From a virus (Duplodnaviria > Heunggongvirae > Uroviricota > Caudoviricetes): DNA of 64,000 nt. Shown here piece after piece: positions 21,051 to 43,704 of this stretch (its first letter is position 1; every line of letters starts with the position of its first letter). Both the position numbers and the translations under genes were made by a program. The DNA lies in IMG/VR virus record IMGVR_UViG_3300023210_000014, positions 50,797 through 114,796 of that record; one strand, 5' to 3'. The notes under the pieces were generated by a model. The model had not been told where the DNA came from, did no database searches, and worked only from the letters and a program-made list of their open reading frames with translations.

Positions 21051-21980
21051 ATGTATATGATAAAAACAAAAAACCTTCAATTTCAAAAATATAAAACTAA
21101 ACATTACGATTTAAATCAAATTATTGAGATTGAATGCGATCAATGTGAAACGATCTTTTCTCAAAAACTGAGGCAACAACAAAAACAATTTCAAAAATAT
21201 GGTTTAGATCTCTGTAGAGGATGTAAACAAAAACATCAATATGCTGCAGGATTAAGAAATAAGCAAATTTGGATTTGTAAAAATAATGCCCGAAATCAAA
21301 AAGGTAAAACTGTTGAAGCTCTCTATGGTGCTGAACGAGGTACAGATATTAAAAATAAAATGTCAATTGCTACTTTAGGAAAAAACAATGGAATGTTTGG
21401 AAAACATCAAAATGAATTAACCAAGGAAAAAATAGGTAATAGAACTAGAGGTAAAACACTAGAAGAAATATATGGCTCTAAAAAAGCTATTGAAATCAAA
21501 CAGAAAATAAGTAATTCCACATCTGCTGAAAACAATTCCATGTATGGAAAACCCTCCCCAATGGGATCGGGGAATGGTTGGTCGGGTTGGTATAATGGTT
21601 ATTTCTTTCGAAGTTTATTGGAATTGGCTTATTTGAAATTTTTAATTGACAATAAAATTTATTTTGATAATGGCGAACAAAAGAAATACTCAATTCAATA
21701 TGAGTATGACGGAATAATTAGAAATTATTTTTGTGACTATTATTTAATTGATGAAAATTTGTTTGTTGAAATAAAACCTAAAAAATTAATTTCCACAAAA
21801 CAGAATCTTGCTAAATTTGATGCAGCAATACAAAAACACGGCCTAAATTTTAAGATTTTAACTGAATACGACTTTCCACAAATAACGTCTATTGAAATTA
21901 TTTCGATGTATGAGTGTGGTAATTTAATTTTCATTGAGAGGTACAATGAAAAATTTAAGGAGATATATCTTGACAAATAA
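21051..21980 (+). CDS. homing-endonuclease-like protein: Zn-finger + NUMOD3 repeats + PD-(D/E)xK nuclease domain
   Basis: CDQC...CRGC zinc finger. At least 4 NUMOD3-like repeats (GKTVEALYG, GKNNGMFGKHQNELTKEKIG, GKTLEEIYG, NNSMYGK). C-terminal ...DYYLIDENLFVEIKPKK has a D...E-x-K nuclease signature. Confidence 0.55.
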   Translation: MYMIKTKNLQFQKYKTKHYDLNQIIEIECDQCETIFSQKLRQQQKQFQKYGLDLCRGCKQKHQYAAGLRNKQIWICKNNARNQKGKTVEALYGAERGTDIKNKMSIATLGKNNGMFGKHQNELTKEKIGNRTRGKTLEEIYGSKKAIEIKQKISNSTSAENNSMYGKPSPMGSGNGWSGWYNGYFFRSLLELAYLKFLIDNKIYFDNGEQKKYSIQYEYDGIIRNYFCDYYLIDENLFVEIKPKKLISTKQNLAKFDAAIQKHGLNFKILTEYDFPQITSIEIISMYECGNLIFIERYNEKFKEIYLDK

Positions 21981-22548
21981 GAAAACAATTAAGAAAACAA
22001 TTAATGGAGGGGTCCTTTTTGTTGAAGGTCCCGACAGATGTGGAAAAACCCATATAGCCAAAGCCTTAGCAGAAAAATACAGTTTGGAATACTGGCGTAA
22101 TGATAATGTGGATGACATTTTACGTTATGCTGGTCCCGGAGAATTCAAAAAGGTTCTCCAATATTATTATTCACAAATGCCATTGTTTGCAAAAATGTTG
22201 CAGAATAGAGGCTCAGGACTCGTCATTGATCGTTGCTATATTACAGAATGGGTCTATTCAAACTTATTCAATAGAGCGACGGATTTGGATGTTATTCAGG
22301 GCCTAGAGCAGCAGTACATGGAACTTGGTGGCGTAATTATCTACTGTTACAAAACAGATTACATGGCATTTCATGATGAGTTTGTTAAGGAAGAACAAAT
22401 TAAACAAATCAAAGATTTATATCGAATTTATTTTGAAGAACATGCAAAAATGCCGATTCTTTGGCTAGATACAAGCCATGAAGATTTGACTGACCAGCTA
22501 ATGATTATAGATCGATTTTTAAAATCGATGAAAGAAAGAAGTATTTAA
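21946..22548 (+). CDS. P-loop (d)NMP kinase (thymidylate-kinase-like)
   Basis: Start chosen at the ATG with GAGAGG upstream. P-loop is VEGPDRCGKTH. Short kinase with DR/LID-like region. Confidence 0.5.
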   Translation: MKNLRRYILTNKKTIKKTINGGVLFVEGPDRCGKTHIAKALAEKYSLEYWRNDNVDDILRYAGPGEFKKVLQYYYSQMPLFAKMLQNRGSGLVIDRCYITEWVYSNLFNRATDLDVIQGLEQQYMELGGVIIYCYKTDYMAFHDEFVKEEQIKQIKDLYRIYFEEHAKMPILWLDTSHEDLTDQLMIIDRFLKSMKERSI

Positions 22549-23006
22549 TGAGTTTTATGAAAATTAAGAAATTGCATAATGATGCAATAATACCAGATCG
22601 AGCAAACCCTGGTGATGCTGGAATGGATGTTTACGCATTGGAAGATGCAGTTATAAAAGCAGGTGAGGATTATGTTTTCCCATTAGGTTGGTCTTGTGCG
22701 ATCCCCGATGGTTGGGCATTGATCATGAAGGAGAAATCAGGTAGGGCAGTTAAAGATAAACTTGACGTTGGCGCCTGTGTTATTGATTCAGGTTATCGTG
22801 GAGAAGTTCATTGTCACTTATTCAATAACAGTAGAAAAATTAATGTTCCAATCAAAAAAGGTGAAAAGATTGCACAGGTAATTCTAGTTCCAATTTGGAA
22901 TGGCACTCCTGAAATTGTAGATGAACTTGATGAAACCCAAAGAGGTTCAGGTGCATTTGGTAGCAGTGGATTGGTAAGCGGTATAAGTTTATCGGATAAC
23001 ATTTAA
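22548..23006 (+). CDS. dut: dUTPase (trimeric dUTP pyrophosphatase)
   Basis: Motif I is GDAGMDVYA, motif III is IDSGYRGEV, motif V is RGSGAFGSSG. Confidence 0.85.
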   Translation: MSFMKIKKLHNDAIIPDRANPGDAGMDVYALEDAVIKAGEDYVFPLGWSCAIPDGWALIMKEKSGRAVKDKLDVGACVIDSGYRGEVHCHLFNNSRKINVPIKKGEKIAQVILVPIWNGTPEIVDELDETQRGSGAFGSSGLVSGISLSDNI

Positions 23007-23049: not shown

Positions 23050-23092
23050 AGGTCTATACGGTTATATCCTATTCTTGTCTTTAGGAGGCACA

Positions 23093-25534: not shown

Positions 25535-25917
25535 TTATAGCAATAGATTTCGATGGCACAATAGTTGAACATGACTATCCCCGAATTGGTAAACCCGTAC
25601 CTCTTGCAATAGAAACTATGATTAGTTTACAGCAGAGTGGAAATCAATTGATATTGTATACCATGCGAAGTGGTAAAGAACTTCAAGATGCGGTTGATTA
25701 TTGTAAAGAACGAGGGGTTGAATTCTGGGCTGTAAATAAAAATCCAAGTCAATGGAAGTGGACTAAATCCCCTAAAGTATATGCCCAAGTCTATATTGAT
25801 GATGCAGCTTTAGGCTGTCCTCTTCTTGGTCAGAAATTTGAAGTACGACCTCATGTTGATTGGGCAGAAGTTAGAAAGTACTTCAGAATGGGAGATGAAT
25901 TTTGGAATCAAAAATGA
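25531..25917 (+). CDS. HAD-superfamily phosphatase-like protein (128 aa)
   Basis: N-terminal IAIDFDGTI (HAD motif I DxDGT). Small size. Confidence 0.45.
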   Translation: MIIAIDFDGTIVEHDYPRIGKPVPLAIETMISLQQSGNQLILYTMRSGKELQDAVDYCKERGVEFWAVNKNPSQWKWTKSPKVYAQVYIDDAALGCPLLGQKFEVRPHVDWAEVRKYFRMGDEFWNQK

Positions 25918-26351
25918 AATGGGACGAAATCTGGATGAACCTTGCAAAAGATATTGCCTCACGCTCGACATGTTTAGTTCCAAATCGTTCAGTTGGATGT
26001 GTGATTGTAACCGAAGATAATACCAGTGTTTTAGCACATGGGTATAATGGTTCAGCAAAGGGTGATGATAACTCTTGCGAATATAATCCACGTCATGGGA
26101 ATGGGATTGGAAATAGCCGTTGCACATGTGTTCATGCGGAAATGAATGCAGTGACTAAATTGGATTTCACAGATCCACGTAAAAAGAAAATGTACCTGAC
26201 TCTTTCACCATGTGACCTCTGCTATAAATTAATTGTGAATGCCGGAATTGATGAGGTAATTTACAATGAGGAATATACCAGGGGAACAGCCATAGGCAAT
26301 ATGATTTTATTGGGTATAAATGTTCGACATATCAAAGGACATTGGAAATGA
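25914..26351 (+). CDS. dCMP deaminase
   Basis: Zn motifs HAEMNA and SPCDLC (cytidine/dCMP deaminase family). ATGA overlap with the upstream gene. Confidence 0.8.
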   Translation: MKWDEIWMNLAKDIASRSTCLVPNRSVGCVIVTEDNTSVLAHGYNGSAKGDDNSCEYNPRHGNGIGNSRCTCVHAEMNAVTKLDFTDPRKKKMYLTLSPCDLCYKLIVNAGIDEVIYNEEYTRGTAIGNMILLGINVRHIKGHWK

Positions 26352-33172: not shown

Positions 33173-33203
33173 GTTTACATTCCCATGTGAATAGTGTATA
33201 ATG
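33171..33203 (+). promoter_or_regulatory. conserved phage promoter copy 4
   Basis: TTTACA at 33174-33179, N17, GTATAATG (TATAAT at 33197-33202). Directly downstream of a terminator. Confidence 0.55.
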
Positions 33204-33223
33204 ATTATATGAAAGGAAGTTAT

Positions 33224-34366
33224 ATGAAAAAAATTAAAATTCTAGTGATCCCCTCGGATCAATTTGGAGTAGGCTATTACCGGTTATTGTGGCCATTCAA
33301 AATGATTCAGAAAAACCATTCTGATGAATTCGATATCACAATAAAATACCATCAAGAAATTACAATTGAAGACACCTTAAGTTATGATATTGTTCACTTT
33401 AATCGATCGTTTCCAAATAAAAATCACGTTGAAATGATAAACGCATTCAAAGCTAATGGATGCAAAGTTGTTATGGATATCGATGATCTTTGGAACCTTC
33501 CTAAGGACCATCCACTTTATGCTTTGGTTAAGAGTCAAAATGCAGATAAGATCACATTCGAATGTCTAAAAGCATCAGAATATATCACAGCTACAACAGA
33601 TCATTTTGCTGATTACCTTCGAACTTTTAAAGATAATGTAATTGTGTTACCTAATTCGATTGATTTTGATCAAACCATGTGGCAAAATAAACGTGAACCC
33701 AGTGACAAACTTAGAATTGGTTGGATTGGGGGTTCATCACATGAAGCAGATTTGAAAAAACTCGCTGGAGTGTTTAATCGTCTTTACAATGATCCGGAAC
33801 TAAAGGATAAATTTGAAATTGTAATGTGTGGATTTGATACACGTGGCACCATAACAACAACCCATCCAACAACTCGTAAAGAAACAACTCGGAAGATTAG
33901 ACCCGAAGAATCAATTTGGGTAAAATTTGAAGAGATCTTTGATGATTATGGCCGTGCACCTGAAGGCGCATACATTCGTAGAAAGACTCTTCCTATTAAT
34001 CGCTATGGTGAACACTACAATTTCATCGATGTGGCATTAGGTCCACTGGTTGAGTCTGAATTCAACGCTTGTAAATCAGAATTGAAAGCTATTGAAGCTG
34101 GAGCAATGGGTTGCGCATTTATTGGATCTGACGTTCCATCATATAATAAATTGATTGAACATGGTGAATCTGGAATTCTCATCCCGGCGAAAAAAGATCA
34201 TAAATTGTGGCACAAGCATATTAAGAAAATGATTTTAGACCGAGAATACACTCAAACATTAGCCGACAATTTACATGAAAAAGTATTCAACTATTTCAAC
34301 CTCAAAACAATCACCGAACAACGAGTTCAATTTTACAAGGAGATTACAGAATGCAAAAACAAATGA
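33224..34366 (+). CDS. glycosyltransferase (GT1/GT4-like fold)
   Basis: Start at the ATG with AAAGGAAG upstream. C-terminal E-x7-E-type region ELKAIEAGAMGCAFIGSDVPSYNKLIEHGESGILI is typical of retaining GT-B glycosyltransferases. Confidence 0.55.
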   Translation: MKKIKILVIPSDQFGVGYYRLLWPFKMIQKNHSDEFDITIKYHQEITIEDTLSYDIVHFNRSFPNKNHVEMINAFKANGCKVVMDIDDLWNLPKDHPLYALVKSQNADKITFECLKASEYITATTDHFADYLRTFKDNVIVLPNSIDFDQTMWQNKREPSDKLRIGWIGGSSHEADLKKLAGVFNRLYNDPELKDKFEIVMCGFDTRGTITTTHPTTRKETTRKIRPEESIWVKFEEIFDDYGRAPEGAYIRRKTLPINRYGEHYNFIDVALGPLVESEFNACKSELKAIEAGAMGCAFIGSDVPSYNKLIEHGESGILIPAKKDHKLWHKHIKKMILDREYTQTLADNLHEKVFNYFNLKTITEQRVQFYKEITECKNK

Positions 34367-34971
34367 GATATGACGACAAGAAGCTTTTAGCCCTATTCGA
34401 AAAGTTTATGGAGATCACTCGACAGATTGATGACCCTCACAATCGAAAAGCAATTGAACGTTTAATGGATGATGTGGGAGAACGCTTCTTTGAGGCACCA
34501 GCATCTGGAAAATTGGAATGGCATAATTGCTTCGCTGGAGGCCTTTGCGCTCATTCAATGAACGTATACCACATTCTCAAGGACCTGTGTGCTAAATTTC
34601 ACAAGGACGTAAATCCAGACGATATCATTATTGCTGCTTTATTCCATGATCTTGGTAAAGCAGGTTATAACGGAACCCCATATTACGTTCCTAAGAATTC
34701 AAAGTGGCATCTGGAGAAGATGGGATTGGTCTATGATATCAATCAAGAACTTAATTGGATGCCACATGCACAAAGATCCGTTCTGGTTTTAAATGAATAT
34801 GAAGTTAATTTGAGCGAAATGGTTACAGTCGGCATACTTATACATGACGGACAATACGTAGAAGCCAACAAATCTTATGCGATGAAAGAAGGGATGTTTC
34901 CTTTATTGGTTTCTATGGCAGATCGCCTTGCAACAGAAATTGAGAAAAACAAATGGGAATCAATACAGTAA
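34351..34971 (+). CDS. HD-domain phosphohydrolase
   Basis: H...HD motif (HSMNVYHIL ... ALFHDLGK) plus a downstream His/Asp (ILIHDGQY). Confidence 0.65.
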   Translation: MQKQMRYDDKKLLALFEKFMEITRQIDDPHNRKAIERLMDDVGERFFEAPASGKLEWHNCFAGGLCAHSMNVYHILKDLCAKFHKDVNPDDIIIAALFHDLGKAGYNGTPYYVPKNSKWHLEKMGLVYDINQELNWMPHAQRSVLVLNEYEVNLSEMVTVGILIHDGQYVEANKSYAMKEGMFPLLVSMADRLATEIEKNKWESIQ

Positions 34972-35582
34972 CTGGTTTAATTTATCTTGTAACTAACAAT
35001 ATTAATGGTAAACAATATATTGGTCAAACAGTTGATTTGAAAGCAAGAAAAGCAAATCATATTTCTCGTTCAAAGAAAGCTAAAATTGGATTTTGTAGAG
35101 CAATTTCTAAATATGGGTCAAACAACTTTAATTGGACAATATTGGAATCTAATATTCTTCGTGAAAAATTAAATGAACGTGAGATCTTTTGGATAAAACA
35201 ATATAAAACATTTAATAATGGTTATAATTTAACATTAGGAGGGAATAGCAATACTACTCCGGATTGTAAATCTTGTTCATTTGGTGATTTAAATTTTGAC
35301 TCTCAAACTTTAGCCGCCAAATATTTCAAGGTAAGTAAATCCCAAATATCATATTGGATAAAAATGGGATATAATCATCCTCCCACTAAAGACGAAATAA
35401 GCTCGAGAATTTCCAAAAATCATGCTGATTTTTCTGGATCTAAAAATGGGAGAGCTAAACCGGTAAGTGTAAATGGAATTGAATATGGCTATATTTCAGA
35501 AGCAGCTAAAGCTTTAAATGTTCAACGAAGTACTATTAGGGCTTGGATTAAAATAAACAAAAACGATGCACAGTGGATATAG
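34953..35582 (+). CDS. GIY-YIG homing endonuclease
   Basis: GLIYLVTNNINGKQYIGQT... N-terminal GIY-YIG module with a conserved Arg and a NUMOD-like C-terminus. Inserted between metabolic genes. Confidence 0.75.
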   Translation: MGINTVTGLIYLVTNNINGKQYIGQTVDLKARKANHISRSKKAKIGFCRAISKYGSNNFNWTILESNILREKLNEREIFWIKQYKTFNNGYNLTLGGNSNTTPDCKSCSFGDLNFDSQTLAAKYFKVSKSQISYWIKMGYNHPPTKDEISSRISKNHADFSGSKNGRAKPVSVNGIEYGYISEAAKALNVQRSTIRAWIKINKNDAQWI

Positions 35583-35638
35583 GGACGGAGCTCCTATAAA
35601 CCCCCTGAAAAAGTGTAGGTTTAGCGGTCAGATTCAAT

Positions 35639-36286
35639 TTGGCCGCTTCCTACGTACTAACATATGACTGGACTAAAATGAACATTAGAGAAGCTAAAAT
35701 AACCCTTGAACATCCTCGCGGATTCACCATGGATCGTCTTGAGAAAAAGTATACAGCAATTGACACACTTCGTCATGGTTGTAAATTAATAGAGGATTTA
35801 GGATACAAATATTGGGTATCCGCTGGAACCTTATTGGGAATTCACAGAGATAATCAATTCATCCCTCATGACACTGACATTGATATTGAAATCTACGTAG
35901 GCCCCAACACAAAAATCAATGTGAGAGAAATTTTGCAGAATATGAAGGCGATAGGTTTTGACCTTATTCGAATTCAAATGCTCGATTCAGCTTATCCAAC
36001 ACAATTAGCATTTATGAATGTGAGCAACAATGTGATTTTTGATGTGTATTGGTATTATGATGATCCATTTTATGATCATCGGATAATCAATCGAACTGTT
36101 GATGGGATTCTTTGGTATCCAAAAGAGAAAATACTCGAGTTGGAAACCTTAACCTTCAAGGATCATGATTTCATCGTACCTGACCCAGATTGGTACTGCG
36201 AGTTCCGATATGGAGTGGATTGGAAAACTCCAGCAAAGGAAAAAGGCGAATGGCAAATGCAAGCAACAAACCTCGAAAGGACATAA
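35639..36286 (+). CDS. LicD-family phosphotransferase (LicD/fukutin-like)
   Basis: YWVSAGTLLGIHRDNQFIPHDTDIDIEI matches the LicD signature (WLDGGTLLGAVR...IPWDDDIDI). The start is uncertain (TTG at 35639 or ATG at 35678). Confidence 0.7.
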   Translation: MAASYVLTYDWTKMNIREAKITLEHPRGFTMDRLEKKYTAIDTLRHGCKLIEDLGYKYWVSAGTLLGIHRDNQFIPHDTDIDIEIYVGPNTKINVREILQNMKAIGFDLIRIQMLDSAYPTQLAFMNVSNNVIFDVYWYYDDPFYDHRIINRTVDGILWYPKEKILELETLTFKDHDFIVPDPDWYCEFRYGVDWKTPAKEKGEWQMQATNLERT

Positions 36287-36287
36287 C

Positions 36288-36830
36288 GTGATTTATATTG
36301 TATCTGGTTATAAACGTAGTGGAACTTCATTAATGATGAAAATATTAGATCACTTGGGTTTAGAATTGGATTATGATGTTAAATTCAGTTGCGACGTAAT
36401 TAAAAATGGAAATTTCAAACAAAAATACGTCTTTGAAATTAAAGAAATCGTTTATGGTCAACCTTTTGAATTAGAAAAATTTGAGGGTAAAGTTATTAAG
36501 GTTTTAGCTAGCGGAGTATTAAGCTCACAGAATAATTCAAAAAACATTAAAATGATTTATATGAGTCGGGATAAGAATGAAATATTAAACTCAATGAGAA
36601 AATACAAGAACGAATCAGATATGAAAAGAGAAAAAAATATTATTTCTAGAATTCCGAAGAATAAAATATTCAAGGTCTTCAATCCTTTGGAGGTTAATTT
36701 TATTGATTTAATCAATGCTCCCAAAGAAATAATAATGGACGTGATTGATTATTTGGATTTAAAACCAACCACTTTACAAATCGAATGTGCCATAAGTGAG
36801 GTTAACCCAGAAATGAATCATTTCTCATGA
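36288..36830 (+). CDS. sulfotransferase-like P-loop protein
   Basis: GTG start after GAAAGGA. SGYKRSGTSLMMKIL resembles the 5'-PSB motif. YMSRDKNEILNSM resembles the 3'-PB motif (RDxxDvxvS). The ORF track's longer version overlaps LicD by 120 nt. Confidence 0.4.
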   Translation: MIYIVSGYKRSGTSLMMKILDHLGLELDYDVKFSCDVIKNGNFKQKYVFEIKEIVYGQPFELEKFEGKVIKVLASGVLSSQNNSKNIKMIYMSRDKNEILNSMRKYKNESDMKREKNIISRIPKNKIFKVFNPLEVNFIDLINAPKEIIMDVIDYLDLKPTTLQIECAISEVNPEMNHFS

Positions 36831-37219
36831 GAAAAGTCTTAACATATGGCACATTTGATTTATTTCATTATGGGCATTTGAATATGTTGCAAACAGCTGC
36901 AGCCTTTGGTGATGAATTGATTGTTGGTATTTCTACCGATGAATTTAATGAAGAGAAAAACAAAAAAGCTATTATACCTTATCGCCAACGTATGCAAATA
37001 GTGTCAAATATTCAGTGTGTTGACAGAGTCTTCCCTGAATGGTCTTGGGAGCAAAAGATTGCTGATCTTGAGAGATTCAAAATTGACACCTTTATAATTG
37101 GGGAGGATTGGAAAGGCAAATTTGATTTTCTTCATCCATATTGCGAGGTAATTTACCTGGCTCGGACTGATGGAATCTCAACTACTGAAATTCGGAATAG
37201 AATTTTGTCAGGTGAATAA
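36827..37219 (+). CDS. cytidylyltransferase (glycerol-3-phosphate cytidylyltransferase TagD-like)
   Basis: LTYGTFDLFHYGHLNMLQ (HxGH) and RTDGISTTEIR (ISTT motif), 130 aa. Classic TagD/CCT family. Confidence 0.8.
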   Translation: MRKVLTYGTFDLFHYGHLNMLQTAAAFGDELIVGISTDEFNEEKNKKAIIPYRQRMQIVSNIQCVDRVFPEWSWEQKIADLERFKIDTFIIGEDWKGKFDFLHPYCEVIYLARTDGISTTEIRNRILSGE

Positions 37220-37251
37220 GGTTTACATTTCTCATTGTTTATGGTATAATG
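37220..37251 (+). promoter_or_regulatory. conserved phage promoter copy 5
   Basis: AAGG-TTTACA (37222-37227) -N17- GGTATAATG (TATAAT 37245-37250). Confidence 0.55.
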
Positions 37252-37267
37252 AGACAAAAGGAGAAAT

Positions 37268-37786
37268 ATGCAAAAGATACTAACGACTGGTTATGCTTTG
37301 ACCCGTCAACTAGAGAAAGAGTATTCAGTTTTACAGGATCGACCAACCAAACTGAATCTTCATTATCCCGAACACCAAATGATAATCAAAAGATTCATTG
37401 GTCAACTTAATGAAGAATTGGTAGAATGGTATACGGCTGAAACAGACGAAGAACGAATTGATGAAGCAGCTGACATATTGAATTTTGCTATGAGTATTAT
37501 GCTTATGTTGGACTGTGAAATATATGAATTGGACGAGGATGATTATCCCTTCAGCGGCATGTTAAAATTATTCATTTTGTGGAATGATGTTTCCCATAAA
37601 CTTAAGAATCGACCATGGAAAAAGACCCAAGTGTTAACTTGTTTAGAAACGATTGAGCCTATTCTATTTGAAGCGTTCAATAAAACTATTGGGTTTCTTC
37701 TTCAACATCACACAGAAGATGAAATTGTTAATGCGATCGAATCAAAGCACAAGAAGAACCTCTTCCGCTTAAAATCTAACTATTAG
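37268..37786 (+). CDS. MazG-like / all-alpha NTP pyrophosphohydrolase (putative)
   Basis: EELVEWYTAETDEERIDEAADILNFAMSI fits the MazG/HisE ExxE...ExxD metal-binding helix pattern. Assignment is tentative. Confidence 0.4.
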   Translation: MQKILTTGYALTRQLEKEYSVLQDRPTKLNLHYPEHQMIIKRFIGQLNEELVEWYTAETDEERIDEAADILNFAMSIMLMLDCEIYELDEDDYPFSGMLKLFILWNDVSHKLKNRPWKKTQVLTCLETIEPILFEAFNKTIGFLLQHHTEDEIVNAIESKHKKNLFRLKSNY

Positions 37787-37793
37787 GAGAACC

Positions 37794-38477
37794 ATGAGAA
37801 TCTTTATGAACCTGGGCGAAGCTTACCCGGAGATCAAACGCGATCTAAATAAGTTTGGAGTAATTGTTCACCCGAACACAATGCAAGATAAATGGGTTGC
37901 AGACGATGACGATTACATGACAAAAGAAACCCAACTCTACACCTTCTGTATTCTTGATACGACAGATCATTTGGATTATGCGAAAGATCCTGAATGGTGT
38001 GCAGCTGAATTTGCTGAACGAATTGATACTTCACAAGAAGTTCTCAACCCTGGTTACGCATATAAAATTCGTGAGGTGTGGGAAGAATTTGTTCACGATG
38101 GAAAATTCGGATATACATACCACGATCGTATGGCATTCCAAGTCCAAAAGATCATTGATGAATTGAAACGTAATCTTGACAGTCGTCAATTGATCGTTCA
38201 AATCTTTGATTATAATCAGGACAATCAAAACATCGGCGGAGCTAAGATTAGGATTCCATGCTCGATGTATTACCAATTGATGTACCGAGAAGGCAAACTG
38301 GATATCATTTACAATATGAGAAGCTGTGACTTTAGTGAACACTTCACCAATGACGTTTCCCTTGCAATGATGCTACAACATCACGTTGCAAAAGAAGTTG
38401 GAATCGAACCCGGTAAGATGTTCTACAGTGCAGGCAGTTTCCACATCTATAAGAAAGACTGGGAAATCCTAGCGTAA
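37794..38477 (+). CDS. thymidylate-synthase-fold pyrimidine hydroxymethylase/methylase homolog (ThyA / dCMP-HMase / dUMP-HMase family)
   Basis: IPCSMYYQLMYREGKLDIIYNMRSCDFSEHFTNDVSLAMMLQHHVAKEVGIEPGKMFYSAGSFHIYKKDW aligns by eye to ThyA PCH..QFYV...GKLSCQLYQRSxD...PFNIASYALLTxMIAQ...G.F.HxxGDAHIY. The nucleophile Cys is present in P-C-S. It is 227 aa, shorter than ThyA. Confidence 0.55.
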   Translation: MRIFMNLGEAYPEIKRDLNKFGVIVHPNTMQDKWVADDDDYMTKETQLYTFCILDTTDHLDYAKDPEWCAAEFAERIDTSQEVLNPGYAYKIREVWEEFVHDGKFGYTYHDRMAFQVQKIIDELKRNLDSRQLIVQIFDYNQDNQNIGGAKIRIPCSMYYQLMYREGKLDIIYNMRSCDFSEHFTNDVSLAMMLQHHVAKEVGIEPGKMFYSAGSFHIYKKDWEILA

Positions 38478-38485
38478 GGAGATTT

Positions 38486-39841
38486 ATGTGCGGCATCGCT
38501 GTTAGAAACTTAAAGCGCCAAACTTATTATACAGATGAAATGGGCCATCGTGGCCTGCTAACACACCGGAAGGAATTTGGATGTTTAGAACTCATACATG
38601 AACATCTACCAATTCAAGTTTACGACTCAGCATATCCAATCATTCAATCTGAACGATATGATGTTTTGTTCAATGGAGAAATCTTCGAACATGATGAGAC
38701 AGACGATATTGTTTTTCTTACTAAGATGTTCAGGGATGAGTCTTTCCGTCACGTGTTTGATATTGTTGAGGAACTTAAAAACTTAGATGGATTTTATTCT
38801 TTTATCGTAATCGATAAACAAGAGAATAAAGTCTATGCTTTTACAGACCCACTTGGAAAGAAGCAATTATATTATAATCCTGGATTTGGCATTGCTTCAG
38901 AGATCAGAGGGGTTTCAGATAAGAATTCAAAACTCGATCGTACCTATTTTGGTACGATTCTTAAACATGGTTACACTGCTGATAATCGTACACCTTTACA
39001 AAATGTGAAACGATTGCTTCCGAATACAGTTTACACTTTCGATGTTGAATTGACCCTACATGCCATGATGGAAAATTATTATGATTTCTTTGCTCCAATT
39101 GTTGGGGTACCATTTCAGAGTATGACCTCAAATCAATTCATATATGACACAATGGAAAAATCAGTTAAGAATAGATTGATTGGCCATCATAGAGTTGCAT
39201 TACTTCTCTCCGGTGGACTTGATAGCGCTATTATTCATCATCATTTAAAATGTGCAAAGAATGTTTCAGTTTACACTGTGAACAATGGCGAAGATTATCA
39301 ATACGCAAAAGCATTGGCACCAGAAGCTCAGTTGGTTAATTTCACTCAATTTGGTGATGACCTCAAGATGGCAATTCATGCTCAAGAAATGCCAATGGAT
39401 CTTGGGAGTATGATTCCTCAATTCAAACTTTGCTCAGCAATAAATGAACGCGTGATAATGACTGGAGATGGTGCAGATGAAATCTTCGGAGGATATCGTA
39501 GGATGGCAGAATATGATGCACAAGTCTCAGACATATTTGATGAGTTGAGATATTATCATCTTGTTCGTTTGGATCGCATGTCAATGTGGTTTACTAAGGA
39601 ATTGAGAAGTCCATTCTTAAACTTGGACTTGATTAAATTTGCGTTGACCCTCCCTCACGAGGATAGAATTGATAAGAAGTTCCTTCGTAATGTATATCGA
39701 GGGATTCTCCCAATGAATATTGTCAACCGACCAAAAGAACCTCTCAAAATTGACAGGGTTAAAAAAGACCCTTATGAATATAGAAAAGAATTAATCACTG
39801 AATACCTTAATCAAAGGAAGTTAAATGGCCAAGGAAAGTAA
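38486..39841 (+). CDS. asparagine synthetase-like glutamine amidotransferase (class II GATase + PP-loop ATP pyrophosphatase)
   Basis: N-terminal MCGIA (Cys2 nucleophile), NGEIFEH resembling NGEIYN, and the PP-loop LLSGGLDS. Confidence 0.75.
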   Translation: MCGIAVRNLKRQTYYTDEMGHRGLLTHRKEFGCLELIHEHLPIQVYDSAYPIIQSERYDVLFNGEIFEHDETDDIVFLTKMFRDESFRHVFDIVEELKNLDGFYSFIVIDKQENKVYAFTDPLGKKQLYYNPGFGIASEIRGVSDKNSKLDRTYFGTILKHGYTADNRTPLQNVKRLLPNTVYTFDVELTLHAMMENYYDFFAPIVGVPFQSMTSNQFIYDTMEKSVKNRLIGHHRVALLLSGGLDSAIIHHHLKCAKNVSVYTVNNGEDYQYAKALAPEAQLVNFTQFGDDLKMAIHAQEMPMDLGSMIPQFKLCSAINERVIMTGDGADEIFGGYRRMAEYDAQVSDIFDELRYYHLVRLDRMSMWFTKELRSPFLNLDLIKFALTLPHEDRIDKKFLRNVYRGILPMNIVNRPKEPLKIDRVKKDPYEYRKELITEYLNQRKLNGQGK

Positions 39842-40736
39842 ACACATAAACAAAATTGGAGCACAAGATGTTCTTCAATTTAGAACTGAAAAGCCAGAAG
39901 ATTATCACTGCACGTGTGATTATTGCACGGTCAATTTCAAGGGCGAAGTCTTCGGTGTGGACGAGGGTAAATATTATTCTCAACGATGCCGCAATCACTA
40001 TTACCCAAAGGACATCAATCATGAATTTCCACATCTCGACGTCGGACACTGGCCCGGGTATCGGTTTGCTGTTCAAAACTACACTGAAGTCGGTGATATT
40101 GTATTTGATCCTACTGTTGGAAGCGGAACTGCAATTGCAGAAGCAGAAAATAACCATCGAATTGGAATCGGTGTTGAACTCGAATTCCCCGAAGCATGCA
40201 GATTCTTCTGTAACAGCAGAGGAACAGTAATTGAGGGCGATACAATGCAGGTTGATCCTGATGAATTCTTAGAGAAGGAATCAATTCAACTATTGGTGAA
40301 TGGAACTCCATATCCGACCATTGGGTCAAAAACATCAGATGCACCAGAACGTAAGAATTTGAGTGATCGAGATGCTAAGATGAATAACACTCTGGACGAC
40401 TATGAACATCCAGATAACCTTGGTAAACTAACACTCAAAAATTACTATCCTGTGATCACGAAGATGTATATGAAATACCTTCCTTACGTTAAACCTGGTG
40501 GCTACATTGTCCTTATTATCAAAGACATGGTAATGAAGAAAGAACCATATCTCCTCCACAAGTATTTGTGTGATCACATTCTGAATGCAACTGATGAACT
40601 CCAATATGATAGTTGCTTCATTCACCGTCACACTCCATCGACAATGTTTATGAACACATATCCTAAGCGATTCCCTGAAGTTAATATTCCTCTTTATCAA
40701 ACAGCAATTGTTTTGAGGAAGAAGGTTTCATCTTGA
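39825..40736 (+). CDS. SAM-dependent methyltransferase-like protein (amino-methyltransferase-like motif I)
   Basis: DIVFDPTVGSGTAIAEAE resembles motif I (DPFxGSGTT) of N6/N4 DNA methyltransferases. There is no clean (D/N)PPY motif (closest is NGTPYP). Confidence 0.3.
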   Translation: MAKESKHINKIGAQDVLQFRTEKPEDYHCTCDYCTVNFKGEVFGVDEGKYYSQRCRNHYYPKDINHEFPHLDVGHWPGYRFAVQNYTEVGDIVFDPTVGSGTAIAEAENNHRIGIGVELEFPEACRFFCNSRGTVIEGDTMQVDPDEFLEKESIQLLVNGTPYPTIGSKTSDAPERKNLSDRDAKMNNTLDDYEHPDNLGKLTLKNYYPVITKMYMKYLPYVKPGGYIVLIIKDMVMKKEPYLLHKYLCDHILNATDELQYDSCFIHRHTPSTMFMNTYPKRFPEVNIPLYQTAIVLRKKVSS

Positions 40737-41290
40737 TCTCAAAAGCAATTATAGCTCATGAGATTGGCCATGCAATATCAGCGTTTGCACAGGACTCTGG
40801 ATATATTCCTACATTGATTGAATTGAGTGAAAGTAAAAACTGTTTAGCTGCATGTTATATGGATGACTTCAAAATGGCTAAACCTGGTCCATATGGCAAA
40901 ACAAAAGGAATCTGTGATCTTGGTGGCATATTTGGTGAATTAATTTATCAAGGTTGGTGGAATCCTTGGGGAGCAAGATTAGACTTAGATAACTTTATAA
41001 GTTCAAATCCTAAGTTGGTTGAATTGGACAATTGGTTATGGGTTGACACTGAAGAAGGCTCATTTCATTATTTGAATTCATATCCAACCACAAAAGAGCG
41101 TAGAGACGTTAAGGTTGACTCACATTCAACATTTAGAAATACTCCATATATTTGGGAAGCATACTGTGACTTTTGTGATCGAATAGACAAAGAGGAATTC
41201 CTCCAAGCTGTTAATGAAGTTTACAAGAATAAAACAGAATCAATTGAGGGCAAAGATATGGCAGCTCTTGGAAAGAGAATAATATTATGA
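40733..41290 (+). CDS. HExxH motif protein (putative metallohydrolase)
   Basis: IIAHEIGHAIS near the N-terminus. Otherwise unknown. Confidence 0.3.
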   Translation: MISKAIIAHEIGHAISAFAQDSGYIPTLIELSESKNCLAACYMDDFKMAKPGPYGKTKGICDLGGIFGELIYQGWWNPWGARLDLDNFISSNPKLVELDNWLWVDTEEGSFHYLNSYPTTKERRDVKVDSHSTFRNTPYIWEAYCDFCDRIDKEEFLQAVNEVYKNKTESIEGKDMAALGKRIIL

Positions 41291-41940
41291 AAATAGCTAG
41301 AACGAGTTGGAGTTATGAAAGTGAATTTGTTGGAATGGATTTATTGCGGCACATTGAAAGAGCGGGTCGTACATGTTATAAATCTGAAGACAAAATAACA
41401 TATGACAGTGCAATGAAGTTTGCAAAGATGATAACTCACACAGTAAAACATGAGTCAGTATTGGAACACGCTTCAATCTCTGTTAGGATTATCTGTGATC
41501 GTGGAATCTCTCATGAAATTGTAAGACATCGTCTTGGTGCATACTCGCAGGAATCTACACGGTATTGCAATTACAATAAAGAGAAGTTTGGCAATGAACT
41601 CACTGTGATTTATCCAGATCATCTGGACGATAAAGATGAGCAAAGTCAAATGGTTTGGAAGATGGCTATGATGTCACTCGAACAATCATATTTCCTTCTT
41701 TTGGAAAAGGGTTGGACACCTCAAGAAGCAAGAGGAATCTTGCCAACCGAACTAAAAACTGAAATGGTTGTTACATATAACCTCAGGCAATGGAGACACT
41801 TCTTCAAGATGCGGTGCAGCAAATATGCTCACCCACAATTAAGAGCGGTCACAATTCCAATGCTTGAATCTTTCAAGGATGACATTCCAGTTATTTTTGA
41901 TGACTTTGAAATAGACAAGGAGAAGATGTGTTTGAAATAA
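41287..41940 (+). CDS. thyX: flavin-dependent thymidylate synthase ThyX
   Basis: ThyX signature RHRLGAYSQESTRY (RHRxxSxxxxSxR), plus upstream conserved His/Arg (LRHIERAGRTCY, EHASISV). Confidence 0.85.
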   Translation: MKIARTSWSYESEFVGMDLLRHIERAGRTCYKSEDKITYDSAMKFAKMITHTVKHESVLEHASISVRIICDRGISHEIVRHRLGAYSQESTRYCNYNKEKFGNELTVIYPDHLDDKDEQSQMVWKMAMMSLEQSYFLLLEKGWTPQEARGILPTELKTEMVVTYNLRQWRHFFKMRCSKYAHPQLRAVTIPMLESFKDDIPVIFDDFEIDKEKMCLK

Positions 41941-42227
41941 TTATAATCACTGCTTTAGTGATCTCAATAATCCTGAATATTGCTGCAGGGATTCTAATCA
42001 GAGGGATGACCTTTCATAGACAAGATGAATTGGGAAAAATCGAACCTCGAGCTATGACTGGATATGAAATTGAGGGAATTCGTAGGCAATTAATCCATAC
42101 GGGAAGACAAGATCTTACGTTGGGTGCTGCACTTTCACTGATTAAAACATTACAGGACATACAGTTAGGTACCTACGAGGACACTAACCCATTTGTCCCT
42201 GCTGATATTTATGAGGAATTTAGGTAA
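41928..42227 (+). CDS. small membrane protein (99 aa)
   Basis: N-terminal TM helix (IIITALVISIILNIAAGILI). Confidence 0.4.
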   Translation: MFEIIIITALVISIILNIAAGILIRGMTFHRQDELGKIEPRAMTGYEIEGIRRQLIHTGRQDLTLGAALSLIKTLQDIQLGTYEDTNPFVPADIYEEFR

Positions 42228-42231
42228 AAAT

Positions 42232-42263
42232 GGTTTACATTTCGATTAGATTATGGTATAATT
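42232..42263 (+). promoter_or_regulatory. conserved phage promoter copy 6
   Basis: ATGG-TTTACA (42234-42239) -N17- GGTATAATTG (TATAAT 42257-42262). Confidence 0.55.
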
Positions 42264-42304
42264 GTACAGACGAAGAAATACAAACCTTGAATTAGGAGAC
42301 GAAA

Positions 42305-43521: not shown

Positions 43522-43704
43522 ATGAGCTACTTGATGAGTGTTTTGGAAGCGGAACTGCGAAAAGCAATTGTTGATGAATGGCAAGAGAATCATTCAGGTA
43601 AGATTCCTCGCTCTCACATTGAACGAGAAATGGAATTAAAAATGGATGAATGGGCTAGGGTTATGGTTAAAAAGATGATGACACAGGAGACATATTCATG
43701 GTAA
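43522..43704 (+). CDS. hypothetical protein (60 aa)
   Basis: ORF with a ribosome-binding site (CAAGGAGATTGAGATG). Confidence 0.4.
   Translation: MSYLMSVLEAELRKAIVDEWQENHSGKIPRSHIEREMELKMDEWARVMVKKMMTQETYSW

What the first reader, a model, noticed from the sequence alone, without database searches (positions are those of the whole stretch)
37220..41940. Candidate pyrimidine hypermodification operon: MazG-like NTPase, ThyA-fold hydroxymethylase homolog, AsnB-like amidotransferase, MTase-like and HExxH proteins, co-transcribed with ThyX
One promoter (copy 5) drives six translationally coupled genes.
- The phage already carries ThyX for dTMP synthesis. Yet it also encodes a second, divergent thymidylate-synthase-fold enzyme (37794-38477) with the nucleophile Cys intact.
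- In known phages, a TS-fold paralog next to a real TS is the hallmark of 5-hydroxymethyl-pyrimidine DNA (T4 dCMP hydroxymethylase, SPO1 dUMP hydroxymethylase).
- Its partners match that logic. A MazG-like NTP pyrophosphatase could clear the canonical dNTP. A dCMP deaminase, dUTPase and dNMP kinase are encoded elsewhere in the window.
- An Asn-synthetase-type amidotransferase (adenylation plus ammonia transfer) and a SAM-MTase-like protein could further decorate the hydroxymethyl or a carboxyl group.
- The hydroxymethylase reading is established family knowledge. That this combination makes a new base is inference.
Basis: partly seen in the sequence, partly recalled or inferred. Interest (0 to 1): 0.8.

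Follow-up and report, generated by a model that had tools for sequence, protein, structure and literature searches.

The report
Phage cytosine-modification cassette with new amidotransferase
An uncultured phage carries a tightly packed gene set (nucleotide pyrophosphatase, cytosine-specific thymidylate-synthase relative, virus-only asparagine-synthetase-like amidotransferase, DNA methylase-like protein) that recurs in several unrelated phage lineages and most likely makes an undescribed modified cytosine for the phage DNA.

Summary
Seven tightly packed + strand genes (37268-42227) follow one near-consensus promoter (37222-37250).

The domain calls are right but need refining:
- B (37794-38477) is not an ordinary ThyA. 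It keeps Cys146 and Asp169, has Asp at position 177 (cytosine-type), Arg at 143, and lacks the ThyA C-terminus.
- C (38486-39841) keeps the glutaminase and PP-loop residues. It has lost AsnB's proposed aspartate-binding residues.
- C's clade is virus-only. In 20 of the 80 best IMG/VR loci it sits beside a B-type gene, and 15 of those also carry a MazG-like gene. In 60 loci it follows a kinase-like gene.
- D is a permuted DNA amino-methyltransferase, present in 6 of those 20 loci.
- E is an FtsH-type protease domain that always travels with ThyX. E and ThyX are backbone genes, not part of the cassette.
- A sister phage has a gp42-like dCMP hydroxymethylase in the same slot, so this is a cassette swap.

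Best reading: a dNTP-pool pathway for a modified cytosine with an extra ATP- and glutamine-dependent step. No searched paper pairs these two enzyme types. The product is not determined. I favour 5-aminomethyl-dC made via 5-hydroxymethyl-dCMP. Whether B methylates or hydroxymethylates is unresolved.

The parts
37222..37250 (+). Sigma-70-like promoter with extended -10 (TTTACA-N14-TGG-TATAAT) driving the operon
   Evidence: Matches 11 of 12 consensus positions plus TG. The motif occurs 6 times in the window against 0.07 expected, all on the + strand.
37268..37786 (+). A: all-alpha (MazG / dimeric-dUTPase-type) dNTP pyrophosphatase, 172 aa. Proposed dCTP (and dUTP) to dNMP step.
   Evidence: Pfam dUTPase_2 6e-3, PRA-PH 8e-3, PHROG_173 2e-5. 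Invariant E49/E50/E53 and E66/D69. Profile hit to MazG-like 1vmg at 1e-4. Found directly upstream of the TS-like gene in 15 of 20 TS-linked loci. Substrate is inferred.
37794..38477 (+). B: thymidylate-synthase-fold, cytosine-type (Asp177) dCMP C5-modifying enzyme, 227 aa
   Evidence: PF00303 5.5e-18. In an alignment with E. coli ThyA and T4 gp42, C146, R166, S167, D169 and Y94 are kept, while 177=Asp, 143=Arg and 147=Ser. The C-terminal ~55 residues of ThyA are absent. AF2 pLDDT 94.6. Best PDB matches are MilA CMP hydroxymethylase and AfhB dCMP hydroxylase. It is far below all NCBIfam ThyA cut-offs.
38486..39841 (+). C: virus-only AsnB-family glutamine amidotransferase with a PP-loop ATP pyrophosphatase domain, 451 aa. 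Not an asparagine synthetase.
   Evidence: GATase_7 plus Asn_synthase. C1, N74, G75, E76, D98 and SGGLDS are conserved, while E348->D, K376->I/V and D384->H. Score of 166.7 against TIGR01536 is below the 267.1 cut-off. Best cellular relatives are 24-31% identical. It is adjacent to a TS-like gene in 20 of 80 IMG/VR loci.
39825..40736 (+). D: circularly permuted beta-class-like DNA amino-methyltransferase with a Cys-rich N-terminal region, 303 aa. Accessory member of the module.
   Evidence: Motif I is FDPTVGSGT. The candidate motif IV is NGTPY (NNPPY in relatives). The family profile matches TTHA0409 at 3e-20, DpnA and N4-cytosine methyltransferases. Present in 6 of 20 TS-AsnB loci. Relatives are fused to a divergent C5-methyltransferase-like domain.
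40733..41290 (+). E: stand-alone FtsH-type (M41-like) zinc metalloprotease domain, 185 aa. Co-transcribed backbone gene paired with ThyX, not part of the modification cassette.
41287..41940 (+). F: ThyX, flavin-dependent thymidylate synthase (dUMP to dTMP), 217 aa. Backbone gene.
   Evidence: PF02511 6.8e-45. TIGR02170 score 126.7 exceeds the 87.9 cut-off. 78% identical to the sister-phage ThyX.
41928..42227 (+). G: 99-aa protein with a hydrophobic N-terminus, last gene of the transcription unit. Backbone gene.
   Evidence: ORF. Homologues follow ThyX in L096 and L013. The next promoter is at 42234.
33174..37219 (+). Upstream operon, possibly an associated decorating set. Genes: GT4 glycosyltransferase (33194-34366), HD phosphohydrolase (34351-34971), GIY-YIG homing endonuclease (34953-35582), LicD-like (35639-36286), sulfotransferase-like (36165-36830, called from 36288 in the public record), glycerol-3-phosphate cytidylyltransferase-like (36827-37219).
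   Evidence: Promoter at 33174 and terminator at 33145. Domain hits (TIGR01518 score 158.4 against a 165.4 cut-off). GT and HD are conserved in the sister phage, whereas LicD, sulfotransferase and cytidylyltransferase are absent there. Any link to DNA modification is inference only.
22548..23006 (+). Trimeric dUTPase (supporting nucleotide metabolism elsewhere in the window)
   Evidence: PF00692 3.5e-28.
25902..26351 (+). dCMP deaminase-family protein (supporting nucleotide metabolism)
   Evidence: PF00383 3.3e-22.
21934..22548 (+). P-loop thymidylate-kinase-like protein (candidate dNMP kinase)
   Evidence: PHROG_761 1.5e-12. Pfam gives only AAA_28 at 6e-4.

Best explanation
Genes A-D (37268-40736) are a mobile, virus-specific cassette. 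It replaces or decorates cytosine through the deoxynucleotide pool.

**Proposed steps**
1. A hydrolyses dCTP (and possibly dUTP) to the monophosphate.
2. B attacks C6 of dCMP with Cys156 (E. coli Cys146) and puts a one-carbon unit from methylene-tetrahydrofolate on C5.
3. C uses ATP (PP-loop adenylation) and glutamine-derived ammonia to aminate the resulting nucleotide.
4. A nucleotide kinase and the phage family-B polymerase then put the new base into DNA.
5. D, a DNA amino-methyltransferase homologue, acts afterwards on DNA.

**Preferred chemistry.** B makes 5-hydroxymethyl-dCMP. C activates the hydroxymethyl oxygen and displaces it with ammonia, giving 5-aminomethyl-dCMP.

**Not part of the cassette.** E (FtsH-like protease domain), ThyX and the 99-aa gene are conserved backbone genes that are merely co-transcribed.

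**Shown:** gene order, domain identities, active-site residues, conserved synteny and the cassette swap.
**Inferred:** all substrates, and the identity of the final base.
For: **B**
- B is cytosine-type. Asp sits at position 177 in an alignment with genuine E. coli ThyA and T4 gp42. PMC8670742 and PMC13326640 use this residue as the dUMP/dCMP discriminator.
- Asp169 is kept, so B is not the flavin-dependent 5-hydroxy-dCMP class, which carries D169N.
- The nearest solved structures are the cytosine-nucleotide enzymes MilA and AfhB.

**Synteny**
- Homologues of C at 38-60% identity lie next to a B-type gene in 20 of the 80 best IMG/VR loci. These loci span about five gene contexts and often show stop/start overlap. 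Fifteen also carry a MazG-like gene.
- L013 keeps the whole order A-B-C-D-E-ThyX.
- L058 strings together kinase-like, MazG-like, AsnB-like, TS-like, C5-methyltransferase-like and deaminase genes.
- Neighbours are replication and nucleotide-metabolism genes.
- The other 60 loci place a P-loop kinase-like gene immediately upstream of the C homologue. This would fit a product that needs its own kinase, although the kinase-like assignment is weak.

**C**
- C keeps the glutaminase and PP-loop/AMP residues.
- It has lost K376 and D384, the residues I recall (own knowledge, not verified here) as AsnB's proposed aspartate-binding positions.
- It scores below the AsnB equivalog cut-offs.
- It has no close cellular or cultured-phage relative.

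**Cassette swap.** Sister phage L096 is syntenic at 41-94% amino-acid identity. In the same slot it has only a gp42-like TS homologue (143=Asp, 177=Asp).

**Precedent**
- AsnS-family ligases act on C5 side chains of cytosine in phage DNA: CmoY, in PMC12783734.
- Glutamine amidotransferases and P-loop kinases are listed as thymidine-hypermodification machinery in PMC13229309.
Against: - No biochemical or mass-spectrometry data exist. The phage is uncultured.
- AsnB-family enzymes are only known to adenylate carboxylates. A hydroxymethyl or methyl group offers none.
- Position 143 of B is Arg, not the Asp/Glu of proven hydroxymethylases.
- B-family members sit beside dCMP-deaminase genes (L006-L008, L009, L010). 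A preprint found such TS homologues mostly make 5-methyl-dCMP, which C could not act on at C5.
- Arg49, which I recall (own knowledge) as contacting glutamine in AsnB, is His in C and varies (H/R/W) across the family.
- D occurs in only 6 of 20 TS-linked loci. It could simply be an anti-restriction methylase.
- The 60 kinase-linked homologues have no TS-like gene within 10 kb.
Confidence: 0.5

Rival explanations
1. C is a pyrimidine C4 aminase. Like GMP synthetase or ThiI, its PP-loop domain adenylates a ring carbonyl, here O4 of dUMP, dTMP or 5-hydroxymethyl-dUMP. Ammonia then converts the uracil-type nucleotide into the cytosine-type one (dCMP, 5-methyl-dCMP or 5-hydroxymethyl-dCMP). This feeds or supplements the Asp177 TS-like enzyme, and could bypass host dCTP depletion.
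For: - From established enzymology, the PP-loop superfamily often adenylates lactam oxygens of bases (GMP synthetase, ThiI, TilS).
- A's best Pfam hit is the dimeric dUTPase family.
- C sits among dUTPase, deaminase and kinase genes.
- This reading works whether B is a methylase or a hydroxymethylase.
- C has lost the positions I recall (own knowledge) as AsnB's amino-acid-binding residues.
Against: - No AsnB-branch enzyme is known to do this.
- Lineage II encodes a cytidylate deaminase immediately after C, which would create a futile cycle.
- The phage is AT-rich (about 37% GC) and should not be short of dCMP.
- It does not explain why C is tied specifically to Asp177 TS-like genes.
Confidence: 0.18
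2. C is a carboxamide-forming ligase in the CmoY sense. A carboxyl-bearing group is placed on cytosine, for example carboxymethyl from carboxy-SAM or an amino-acid adduct on the C5 methylene. It is installed at the nucleotide or DNA level by B, by D, or by the divergent C5-methyltransferase-like proteins. C then amidates that group, and D might N-methylate the amide, much as HemK methylates glutamine.
For: - This is the only chemistry proven for the AsnB family.
- CmoY ligates glycine to 5-carboxymethylcytosine in DNA. A glutamine-dependent ligase cluster is predicted to amidate the same base (PMC12783734).
- Streptomyces phage TurkishDelight has SPPC-CmoX-like, Gln-AsnB-like and CmoA-like genes in a row. 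Its gp124 also lacks K376 and D384.
- D-family domains are fused to C5-methyltransferase-like domains, and such genes neighbour TS-AsnB in lineage II and in L058.
- Invariant Arg143 and His173 near C5 in the B family could bind an anionic partner.
Against: - No CmoX (SPPC) or CmoA homologue is in the window. The nearby C5-methyltransferase-like proteins have HDDC/HTEC motifs instead of SPPC.
- C is only 24% identical to gp124, about as distant as it is from E. coli AsnB.
- Ten or more TS-AsnB loci have neither D nor a C5-methyltransferase-like gene.
- Folate-dependent TS-fold enzymes are not known to install carboxyl groups.
Confidence: 0.17
3. There is no joint pathway. B is a stand-alone dCMP methylase or hydroxymethylase. 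C is an auxiliary metabolic amidotransferase (asparagine or another amide). D is an ordinary anti-restriction DNA methylase. The genes are neighbours only because phage early genes are packed together.
For: - B-family genes frequently occur without C (L001, L002, L005-L008).
- C homologues occur without a TS gene in 60 of 80 loci.
- D-like methylases are common phage anti-restriction genes.
Against: - Adjacency of B and C recurs in about five different gene contexts, with translational coupling.
- C lacks AsnB's proposed aspartate-binding positions and falls below the equivalog cut-offs.
- The C clade is absent from 185,579 cellular species genomes, which is odd for a generic metabolic enzyme.
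- 79 of 80 homologues have either a TS-like or a kinase-like gene as immediate neighbour.
Confidence: 0.1

Closest known systems
T4-type cytosine replacement (gp56 dCTPase, gp42 dCMP hydroxymethylase, gp1 dNMP kinase, then DNA glucosyltransferases)
   Same: An NTP pyrophosphatase sits next to an Asp177 TS-fold enzyme, with nucleotide-pool logic. A glycosyltransferase gene lies a few kb upstream. The sister phage carries a gp42-like enzyme (143=Asp) in the same slot.
   Different: B has Arg143 and Ser147 and lacks the C-terminal segment. A shows no detectable BLAST similarity to gp56. An AsnB-like amidotransferase is inserted in the pathway, which T4 lacks.
CmoA/CmoX/CmoY 5-carboxymethylcytosine hypermodification (Synechococcus phage S-B43; PMC12783734) and its untested glutamine-dependent ligase cluster (e.g. 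Streptomyces phage TurkishDelight gp123-125)
   Same: An asparagine-synthetase-family enzyme is dedicated to a C5-modified cytosine in phage DNA. Both have lost K376 and D384, the positions recalled as AsnB's aspartate-binding residues. The untested cluster also keeps the glutaminase domain.
   Different: The partner here is a folate-type TS-fold enzyme, not an SPPC C5-methyltransferase homologue. There is no CmoA and no ParB. Identity is only 24%, and the genomic neighbourhood points to free nucleotides rather than DNA.
Phage 5-methyl-dCMP synthase / 5mC-selective deaminase neighbourhoods (Xp12-type; bioRxiv 10.1101/2024.12.05.627091)
   Same: Asp177 TS homologue, MazG/PRA-PH-like pyrophosphatase, CDA-fold deaminase and DNA polymerase are clustered. 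Lineage II loci (L009, L010) and L006-L008 look like this.
   Different: Those neighbourhoods are not reported to contain an AsnB-like gene. Xp12 and PaMx74 did not appear among relatives of the B family. The window phage keeps ThyX for dTMP.
Thymidine hypermodification via 5-hmdU DNA kinase and amino-acid:DNA transferases (PMC8989533, PMC13229309)
   Same: The concept is to activate a 5-hydroxymethyl group and replace it with an amine. Glutamine amidotransferases and P-loop kinases are listed as associated machinery. Sixty C homologues follow a P-loop kinase-like gene.
   Different: That system acts on uracil/thymine in DNA after replication. There are no aGPT-Pplase/AADT homologues here. The kinase-like partner has no detectable similarity to any cultured-phage protein.

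Membership tests
Thymidylate synthase ThyA (dTMP synthase) | TS fold with catalytic Cys146, Arg166 and Ser167 | tested here: met
   PF00303 5.5e-18. These columns are invariant in the alignment with E. coli ThyA. The AF2 model matches TS structures with TM 0.70-0.77.
Thymidylate synthase ThyA (dTMP synthase) | Asn177 (dUMP specificity), hydrophobic Leu143, His147, and the C-terminal segment that closes over folate | tested here: not met
   Position 177 is Asp, 143 is Arg and 147 is Ser. The protein ends about 10 residues after His207. Scores of 25-61 bits fall far below the NCBIfam ThyA cut-offs of 108-427.
dCMP hydroxymethylase (T4 gp42 / MilA type) | Asp at 177 and Asp169 retained | tested here: met
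   The best structural match is MilA.
dCMP hydroxymethylase (T4 gp42 / MilA type) | Acidic residue (Asp/Glu) at position 143, as stated in PMC13326640 | tested here: not met
   Arg143 is invariant across the B family. By contrast the sister-phage enzyme L096 has Asp.
dCMP hydroxymethylase (T4 gp42 / MilA type) | Produces 5-hydroxymethyl-dCMP from dCMP and methylene-THF | not testable with these tools
   Needs an enzyme assay or LC-MS.
5-hydroxy-dCMP synthase (RB69 gp48 / AfhB) | Asp169 replaced by Asn (flavin-dependent class) | tested here: not met
   B has MRSCD with Asp169. The 9iqu chain has MRSQN.
Asparagine synthetase B | N-terminal nucleophile Cys, Asn74-Gly75-Glu76, Asp98, and the PP-loop SGGxDS | tested here: met
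   All are conserved in C and its family.
Asparagine synthetase B | Aspartate-site residues Glu348, Lys376 and Asp384 (residue roles recalled from my own knowledge of AsnB, not verified here), and the equivalog score | tested here: not met
   E348->Asp, K376->Ile/Val and D384->His, invariant in the family. TIGR01536 score 166.7 is below 267.1, and NF006949 score 108 is below 499.
CmoY-type 5-carboxymethylcytosine amide ligase system | Neighbouring CmoX (C5-methyltransferase homologue with SPPC motif and Arg350) and usually CmoA | tested here: not met
   No PF00145-like ORF is in the window. Related loci carry HDDC/HTEC variants, not SPPC.
CmoY-type 5-carboxymethylcytosine amide ligase system | Sequence membership in the described ligase clusters | tested here: inconclusive
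   C is 24% identical (1e-16) to TurkishDelight gp124, a likely member of the glutamine-dependent cluster. S-B43 CmoY itself was not compared.
MazG / all-alpha NTP pyrophosphohydrolase | EExxE ... ExxD metal-binding helices | tested here: met
   E49, E50, E53, E66 and D69 are invariant in 11 homologues. Profile hit to MazG-like 1vmg at 1e-4. Pfam scores are below gathering thresholds.
DNA N6-adenine / N4-cytosine amino-methyltransferase | SAM motif I (FxGxG) and overall homology | tested here: met
   FDPTVGSGT is present. The profile matches TTHA0409 at 3e-20, DpnA at 1e-17 and N4-cytosine methyltransferases at 7e-13.
DNA N6-adenine / N4-cytosine amino-methyltransferase | Catalytic motif IV (D/N/S)PP(Y/F) | tested here: inconclusive
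   Window D has N-G-T-P-Y. Relatives have NNPPY or NGPPY.
FtsH (M41) metalloprotease | HExxH plus a downstream acidic ligand in the M41 protease fold | tested here: met
FtsH (M41) metalloprotease | AAA+ ATPase module and membrane anchor | tested here: not met
   E is 185 aa and consists of the protease domain only.
ThyX | Thy1 domain above curated thresholds | tested here: met
   PF02511 score 153.6 exceeds 24.8. TIGR02170 score 126.7 exceeds 87.9.

The most novel reading that the evidence does not exclude
The virus-only AsnB-like enzyme catalyses a reaction new to nucleotide metabolism. It would be an ATP- and glutamine-dependent amination of a C5-modified (or uracil-type) deoxypyrimidine monophosphate. 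Phages of at least five lineages would then build DNA containing a cytosine derivative not yet described in nature, such as 5-aminomethylcytosine, in some cases further N-methylated by the D methyltransferase. In the window phage and its closest relative the base might be decorated further by the upstream sugar / polyol-phosphate genes.
Probability: 0.3. Interest if true: 0.85.

Novelty: new variant of a known kind. Interest (0 to 1): 0.72.

Why it matters
- Modified bases are a main way phages escape restriction and CRISPR systems, and they supply enzymes for epigenetic sequencing.
- Known cytosine routes are methyl, hydroxymethyl (then sugar or carbamoyl), hydroxy (then arabinose) and carboxymethyl (then glycine).
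- A conserved TS-homologue plus amidotransferase pair would add a new branch. It might introduce nitrogen at the nucleotide stage.
- It would also assign a function to a protein clade with at least 465 members in IMG/VR that currently has none.
- The cassette is small enough (A-B-C, about 2.6 kb) to test directly by expression in E. coli followed by nucleoside LC-MS.

Tried and rejected
- **Near-identity DNA search** of 35600-42300 against cultured phages found nothing.
- **Single-protein IMG/VR scan** with C found nothing. The alignment-based scan was needed.
- **PDB code 9IQU** does not occur in the paper library. The entry's identity came from the Foldseek description.
- **BLASTP of A against T4 gp56** was not significant. 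phmmer of A against the PDB was empty.
- **tblastn of the kinase-like partner** against cultured phages was empty. Its profile against the PDB gave only marginal thymidylate-kinase hits. I could not decide whether it is a dNMP kinase or a hydroxymethyl kinase.
- **Literature searches** for aminomethyl-, carbamoylmethyl- or carboxamido-cytosine, and for amidotransferase plus hydroxymethylcytosine, found no description of a TS plus AsnB-like pathway. Nothing was found on DNA modification in the Clostridium perfringens phages that carry B-family genes.
- **Xp12/PaMx74-type 5mdCMP synthases** were sought among B-family relatives and not found. Methylase versus hydroxymethylase therefore stays open.
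- **Rosetta-stone check on D.** I considered that the fused D-family proteins might be AsnB-D fusions. They are C5-methyltransferase-like plus D fusions.
- **Withdrawn claim.** I first read a ~33-residue deletion in C over the AsnB T322/R325 region. A second alignment placed the gap elsewhere, so I do not rely on it.
- **E as a nucleotide-modifying hydrolase** was rejected after the fold search and the finding that it pairs with ThyX.
- **The GT4 glycosyltransferase as an established DNA glycosyltransferase** was rejected. Its relatives are uncharacterised glycosyltransferases of rV5-like phages.

Full report
**1. What is in the sequence**

| Gene | Coordinates | Length |
|---|---|---|
| A | 37268-37786 | 172 aa |
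| B | 37794-38477 | 227 aa |
| C | 38486-39841 | 451 aa |
| D | 39825-40736 | 303 aa |
| E | 40733-41290 | 185 aa |
| F | 41287-41940 | 217 aa |
| G | 41928-42227 | 99 aa |

- G overlaps F and belongs to the same unit.
- Gaps are 7 and 8 nt (A-B, B-C). Overlaps are 17, 4, 4 and 13 nt.
- A promoter-like site, TTTACA-N14-TGG-TATAAT, lies at 37222-37250.
- That extended -10 motif occurs six times in the window with at most one mismatch, always on the + strand. Shuffles predict 0.07.
- The next copy is at 42234.
- The identical locus was read in two independent assemblies (Logan, ENA). The identical B protein is also on record from JGI, with a longest contig of 114.8 kb.
- No cultured phage is close at the DNA level.

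**2. The thymidylate-synthase-fold protein B**

- Pfam calls it Thymidylat_synt (5.5e-18). It scores far below every NCBIfam ThyA equivalog cut-off.
- I aligned it with genuine E. coli ThyA and T4 gp42 fetched from annotated records.
- Kept: Cys146, Arg166, Ser167, Asp169, Tyr94 and His207.
- Changed: position 177 is Asp, as in gp42. This is the residue that switches dUMP to dCMP specificity (PMC8670742 and PMC13326640).
- Position 147 is Ser.
- Position 143 is Arg in the whole family. It is Leu in ThyA (methyl product) and Asp/Glu in known hydroxymethylases.
- Asp169 excludes the flavin-dependent 5-hydroxy-dCMP synthase class, which carries D169N.
- The protein stops about 10 residues after His207, so the C-terminal ~55 residues of ThyA are missing.
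- A confident AF2 model (pLDDT 94.6) matches MilA CMP hydroxymethylase best (E 7e-16, TM 0.82). Next comes the phage HY126 dCMP hydroxylase AfhB, then E. coli TS.
- B is therefore a cytosine-nucleotide C5-modifying enzyme and not an ordinary ThyA.
- Whether it hydroxymethylates or methylates cannot be read from the sequence.
- Family members beside CDA-fold deaminases (L006-L008, L009, L010) resemble neighbourhoods in which five of seven tested TS homologues made 5-methyl-dCMP.

**3. The AsnB-like protein C**

- It has the GATase_7 and Asn_synthase domains.
- Against E. coli AsnB it keeps Cys1, Asn74-Gly75-Glu76, Asp98, the SGGLDS PP-loop, Lys429 and Lys449.
- Glu348 is an invariant Asp, Lys376 is Ile/Val, and Asp384 is an invariant His. 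Arg49 varies.
- The roles I attach to these AsnB positions (aspartate site, glutamine contact) come from my own knowledge and were not checked against a source here.
- It is below the AsnB equivalog cut-offs.
- It is thus probably an active ATP- and glutamine-dependent amidotransferase with a non-aspartate acceptor.
- The clade is virus-only.
  - The large protein database holds many 38-60% identical, unnamed metagenomic members.
  - Cultured phages offer nothing above 27% identity.
  - The best matches in 185,579 cellular species genomes are 24-31% identical.

**4. Conserved synteny**

An alignment-based scan of IMG/VR found 465 relatives of C. I analysed the best 80 loci with phmmer and clustering.

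| Context in the 80 loci | Count |
|---|---|
| B-type TS gene within 3 kb, usually immediately upstream and often with stop/start overlap | 20 |
| ...of those 20, also a MazG-like gene | 15 |
| ...of those 20, also a D homologue | 6 |
| P-loop kinase-like gene directly upstream | 60 |
| Both TS-like and kinase-like (L058, also counted in both rows above) | 1 |
| Neither (gene at a contig end) | 1 |

- The TS-linked loci fall into about five different gene contexts. Their TS genes come from several subfamilies.
- L013 (60% identity in C) has A-B-C-D-E-ThyX-...-G in the same order.
- Lineage II (L009, L010) has TS, AsnB-like, deaminase and MazG-like genes in a row.
- Neighbours are replication and nucleotide-metabolism genes: DNA polymerase A, helicases, dUTPase, deaminase, ThyX and DNA methylases.
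- This pattern argues that C works with the TS-like enzyme on free nucleotides.

**5. The methyltransferase-like protein D**

- An exhaustive search found 68 clusters below 1e-10.
- The family profile matches beta-class DNA amino-methyltransferases: TTHA0409 at 3e-20, DpnA, N4-cytosine methyltransferases, MboIIA and CcrM. Motif I precedes motif IV, so the fold is circularly permuted.
- Relatives have NNPPY. Window D has NGTPY.
- Many relatives are fused behind a divergent C5-cytosine-methyltransferase-like domain with HTEC/HDDC in place of PPC.
- Stand-alone copies of that domain neighbour TS-AsnB in lineage II and in L058.
- D is therefore a DNA-level enzyme and an accessory member of the module, or an independent anti-restriction methylase.

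**6. E and ThyX are backbone genes**

- E has only ten clusters in 5.8 billion proteins.
- E lies directly upstream of ThyX in L096, L098/L099 and L013. L096 and L098/L099 lack A-D.

**7. Cassette swap**

- L096 is a sister phage, syntenic at 41-94% amino-acid identity.
- Between the conserved HD gene and E it has only a 59-aa ORF and a 291-aa TS homologue. That homologue carries the gp42 signature (DFVC, so 143=Asp; 177=Asp; Asp169 kept).
- The window phage has a different set in the same position: a GIY-YIG homing endonuclease, LicD-like, sulfotransferase-like and glycerol-3-phosphate-cytidylyltransferase-like genes, followed by A-B-C-D.
- The site is thus a hot spot where cytosine-modification cassettes are exchanged.
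- The GT4 glycosyltransferase and HD genes upstream are shared by both phages.
- In L013 the corresponding upstream genes are sugar-nucleotide enzymes: DegT aminotransferase, epimerase/dehydratase and FkbM methyltransferase.
- Whether any of these decorate DNA is unknown.

**8. Mechanism**

- The best-supported general statement is a nucleotide-pool pathway: A (dCTP to dCMP), B (C5 one-carbon transfer to dCMP), C (ATP- and glutamine-dependent amination), a kinase, the polymerase, then D on DNA.
- I favour C converting 5-hydroxymethyl-dCMP to 5-aminomethyl-dCMP by activating and displacing the hydroxyl.
  - Substitution at a 5-CH2-X group of a 4-aminopyrimidine is established chemistry in thiamine metabolism and in thymidine hypermodification (own knowledge).
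  - The sister phage makes the hydroxymethyl precursor at this locus.
- This step is inferred, and AsnB-family enzymes are only known to adenylate carboxylates.
- Rival readings:
  - a C4 aminase (uracil-type to cytosine-type nucleotide);
  - a CmoY-like amidation of an unidentified carboxyl side chain;
  - no joint pathway at all.

**9. Comparison with the literature**

- The closest described systems are:
  - the T4 gp56/gp42/gp1 pathway;
  - the CmoA/CmoX/CmoY 5-carboxymethylcytosine system and its untested glutamine-dependent ligase cluster (PMC12783734);
  - the Xp12-type 5-methyl-dCMP/deaminase neighbourhoods.
- Streptomyces phage TurkishDelight shows what looks like the CmoX-linked arrangement: SPPC methyltransferase, Gln-AsnB-like and CmoA-like genes plus ParB.
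- The window's C is only 24% identical to its ligase, and it has no CmoX or CmoA partner.
- Full-text searches found no paper that pairs a TS homologue with an AsnB-like enzyme in phage DNA modification.

**10. Verdict**

A-D form the cassette, and E and F lie outside it.
- The finding is a new variant of a known kind of system. It contains a functionally unassigned, virus-specific enzyme family, and a short expression experiment could test it.

Noticed in passing
window 35639-37219 (and L002 9902-10774): LicD-like, sulfotransferase-like and near-threshold glycerol-3-phosphate cytidylyltransferase genes (TIGR01518 score 158 against a 165 cut-off) sit directly upstream of the cassette and are absent from the sister phage. 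An unrelated gut phage contig (MT121964) has a strong LicD gene (8e-39) right after its B-family TS gene. This might mean phospho-polyol decoration of a hydroxymethyl base or its sugar.
   Followed up: partly
window 40733-41940; L096 8001-9205; L098 2110-3371; L013 12182-13482: A stand-alone FtsH-type protease domain (only 10 clusters in 5.8 billion proteins) always lies immediately upstream of, and overlaps, a ThyX gene. This holds in four contexts, including phages without the modification cassette. The reason for a protease-ThyX pairing is unexplained.
   Followed up: partly
L011, L017-L092 (60 IMG/VR loci), e.g. L011 7440-9416: In large T4-like or jumbo phage contigs (up to 430 kb), the C-family amidotransferase (466-471 aa) is always preceded by an uncharacterised 186-aa P-loop kinase-like gene. 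It is usually followed by a conserved ~208-aa protein. No TS-like gene lies within 10 kb.
   Followed up: partly
P0251, P0274, P0279, P0286 etc.; L009 5321-6466; L010 5429-6568; L058 12093-13283: A divergent C5-cytosine-methyltransferase-like family has HTEC/HDDC in place of the PPC catalytic motif and DNL in place of ENV. It is often fused to a D-type amino-methyltransferase domain, and it neighbours TS-AsnB pairs. It is not CmoX-like (no SPPC). Its reaction is unknown.
   Followed up: partly
window 34953-35582 and 11633-12223: Two GIY-YIG homing-endonuclease genes. The one at 34953 sits exactly at the boundary where the window phage differs from its sister phage, which suggests endonuclease-assisted cassette exchange.
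   Followed up: no
window 9184, 23020, 33174, 37222, 42234, 43454, 47862: A repeated promoter, TTTACATT...TGnTATAAT, lies in front of gene blocks, all on the + strand. It probably defines one temporal class of transcription units.
   Followed up: partly
window 30165-31976: A 603-aa protein with an N-terminal nucleotidyltransferase (GRFQPxHxGH, NMNAT-like) domain, 73% identical in the sister phage. It is possibly an NAD-salvage or nucleotide-sugar enzyme.
   Followed up: no
L033 4543-5454 (family 29 in L033, L036, L073): A 303-aa protein with a thymidylate-kinase-like P-loop N-terminus. By eye, its C-terminal part looks uracil-DNA-glycosylase-like (GEMPS motif). It lies near the TS-AsnB pair in lineage IV.
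   Followed up: no
window 15747-17609, 23075-25534, 42515-43375, 43698-44519: Class II (B12-type) ribonucleotide reductase, family-B DNA polymerase, a Band_7/SPFH lipoprotein and an RlaP-like nucleotidyltransferase. This is general context for a large virulent myovirus-like phage of about 37% GC.
   Followed up: no
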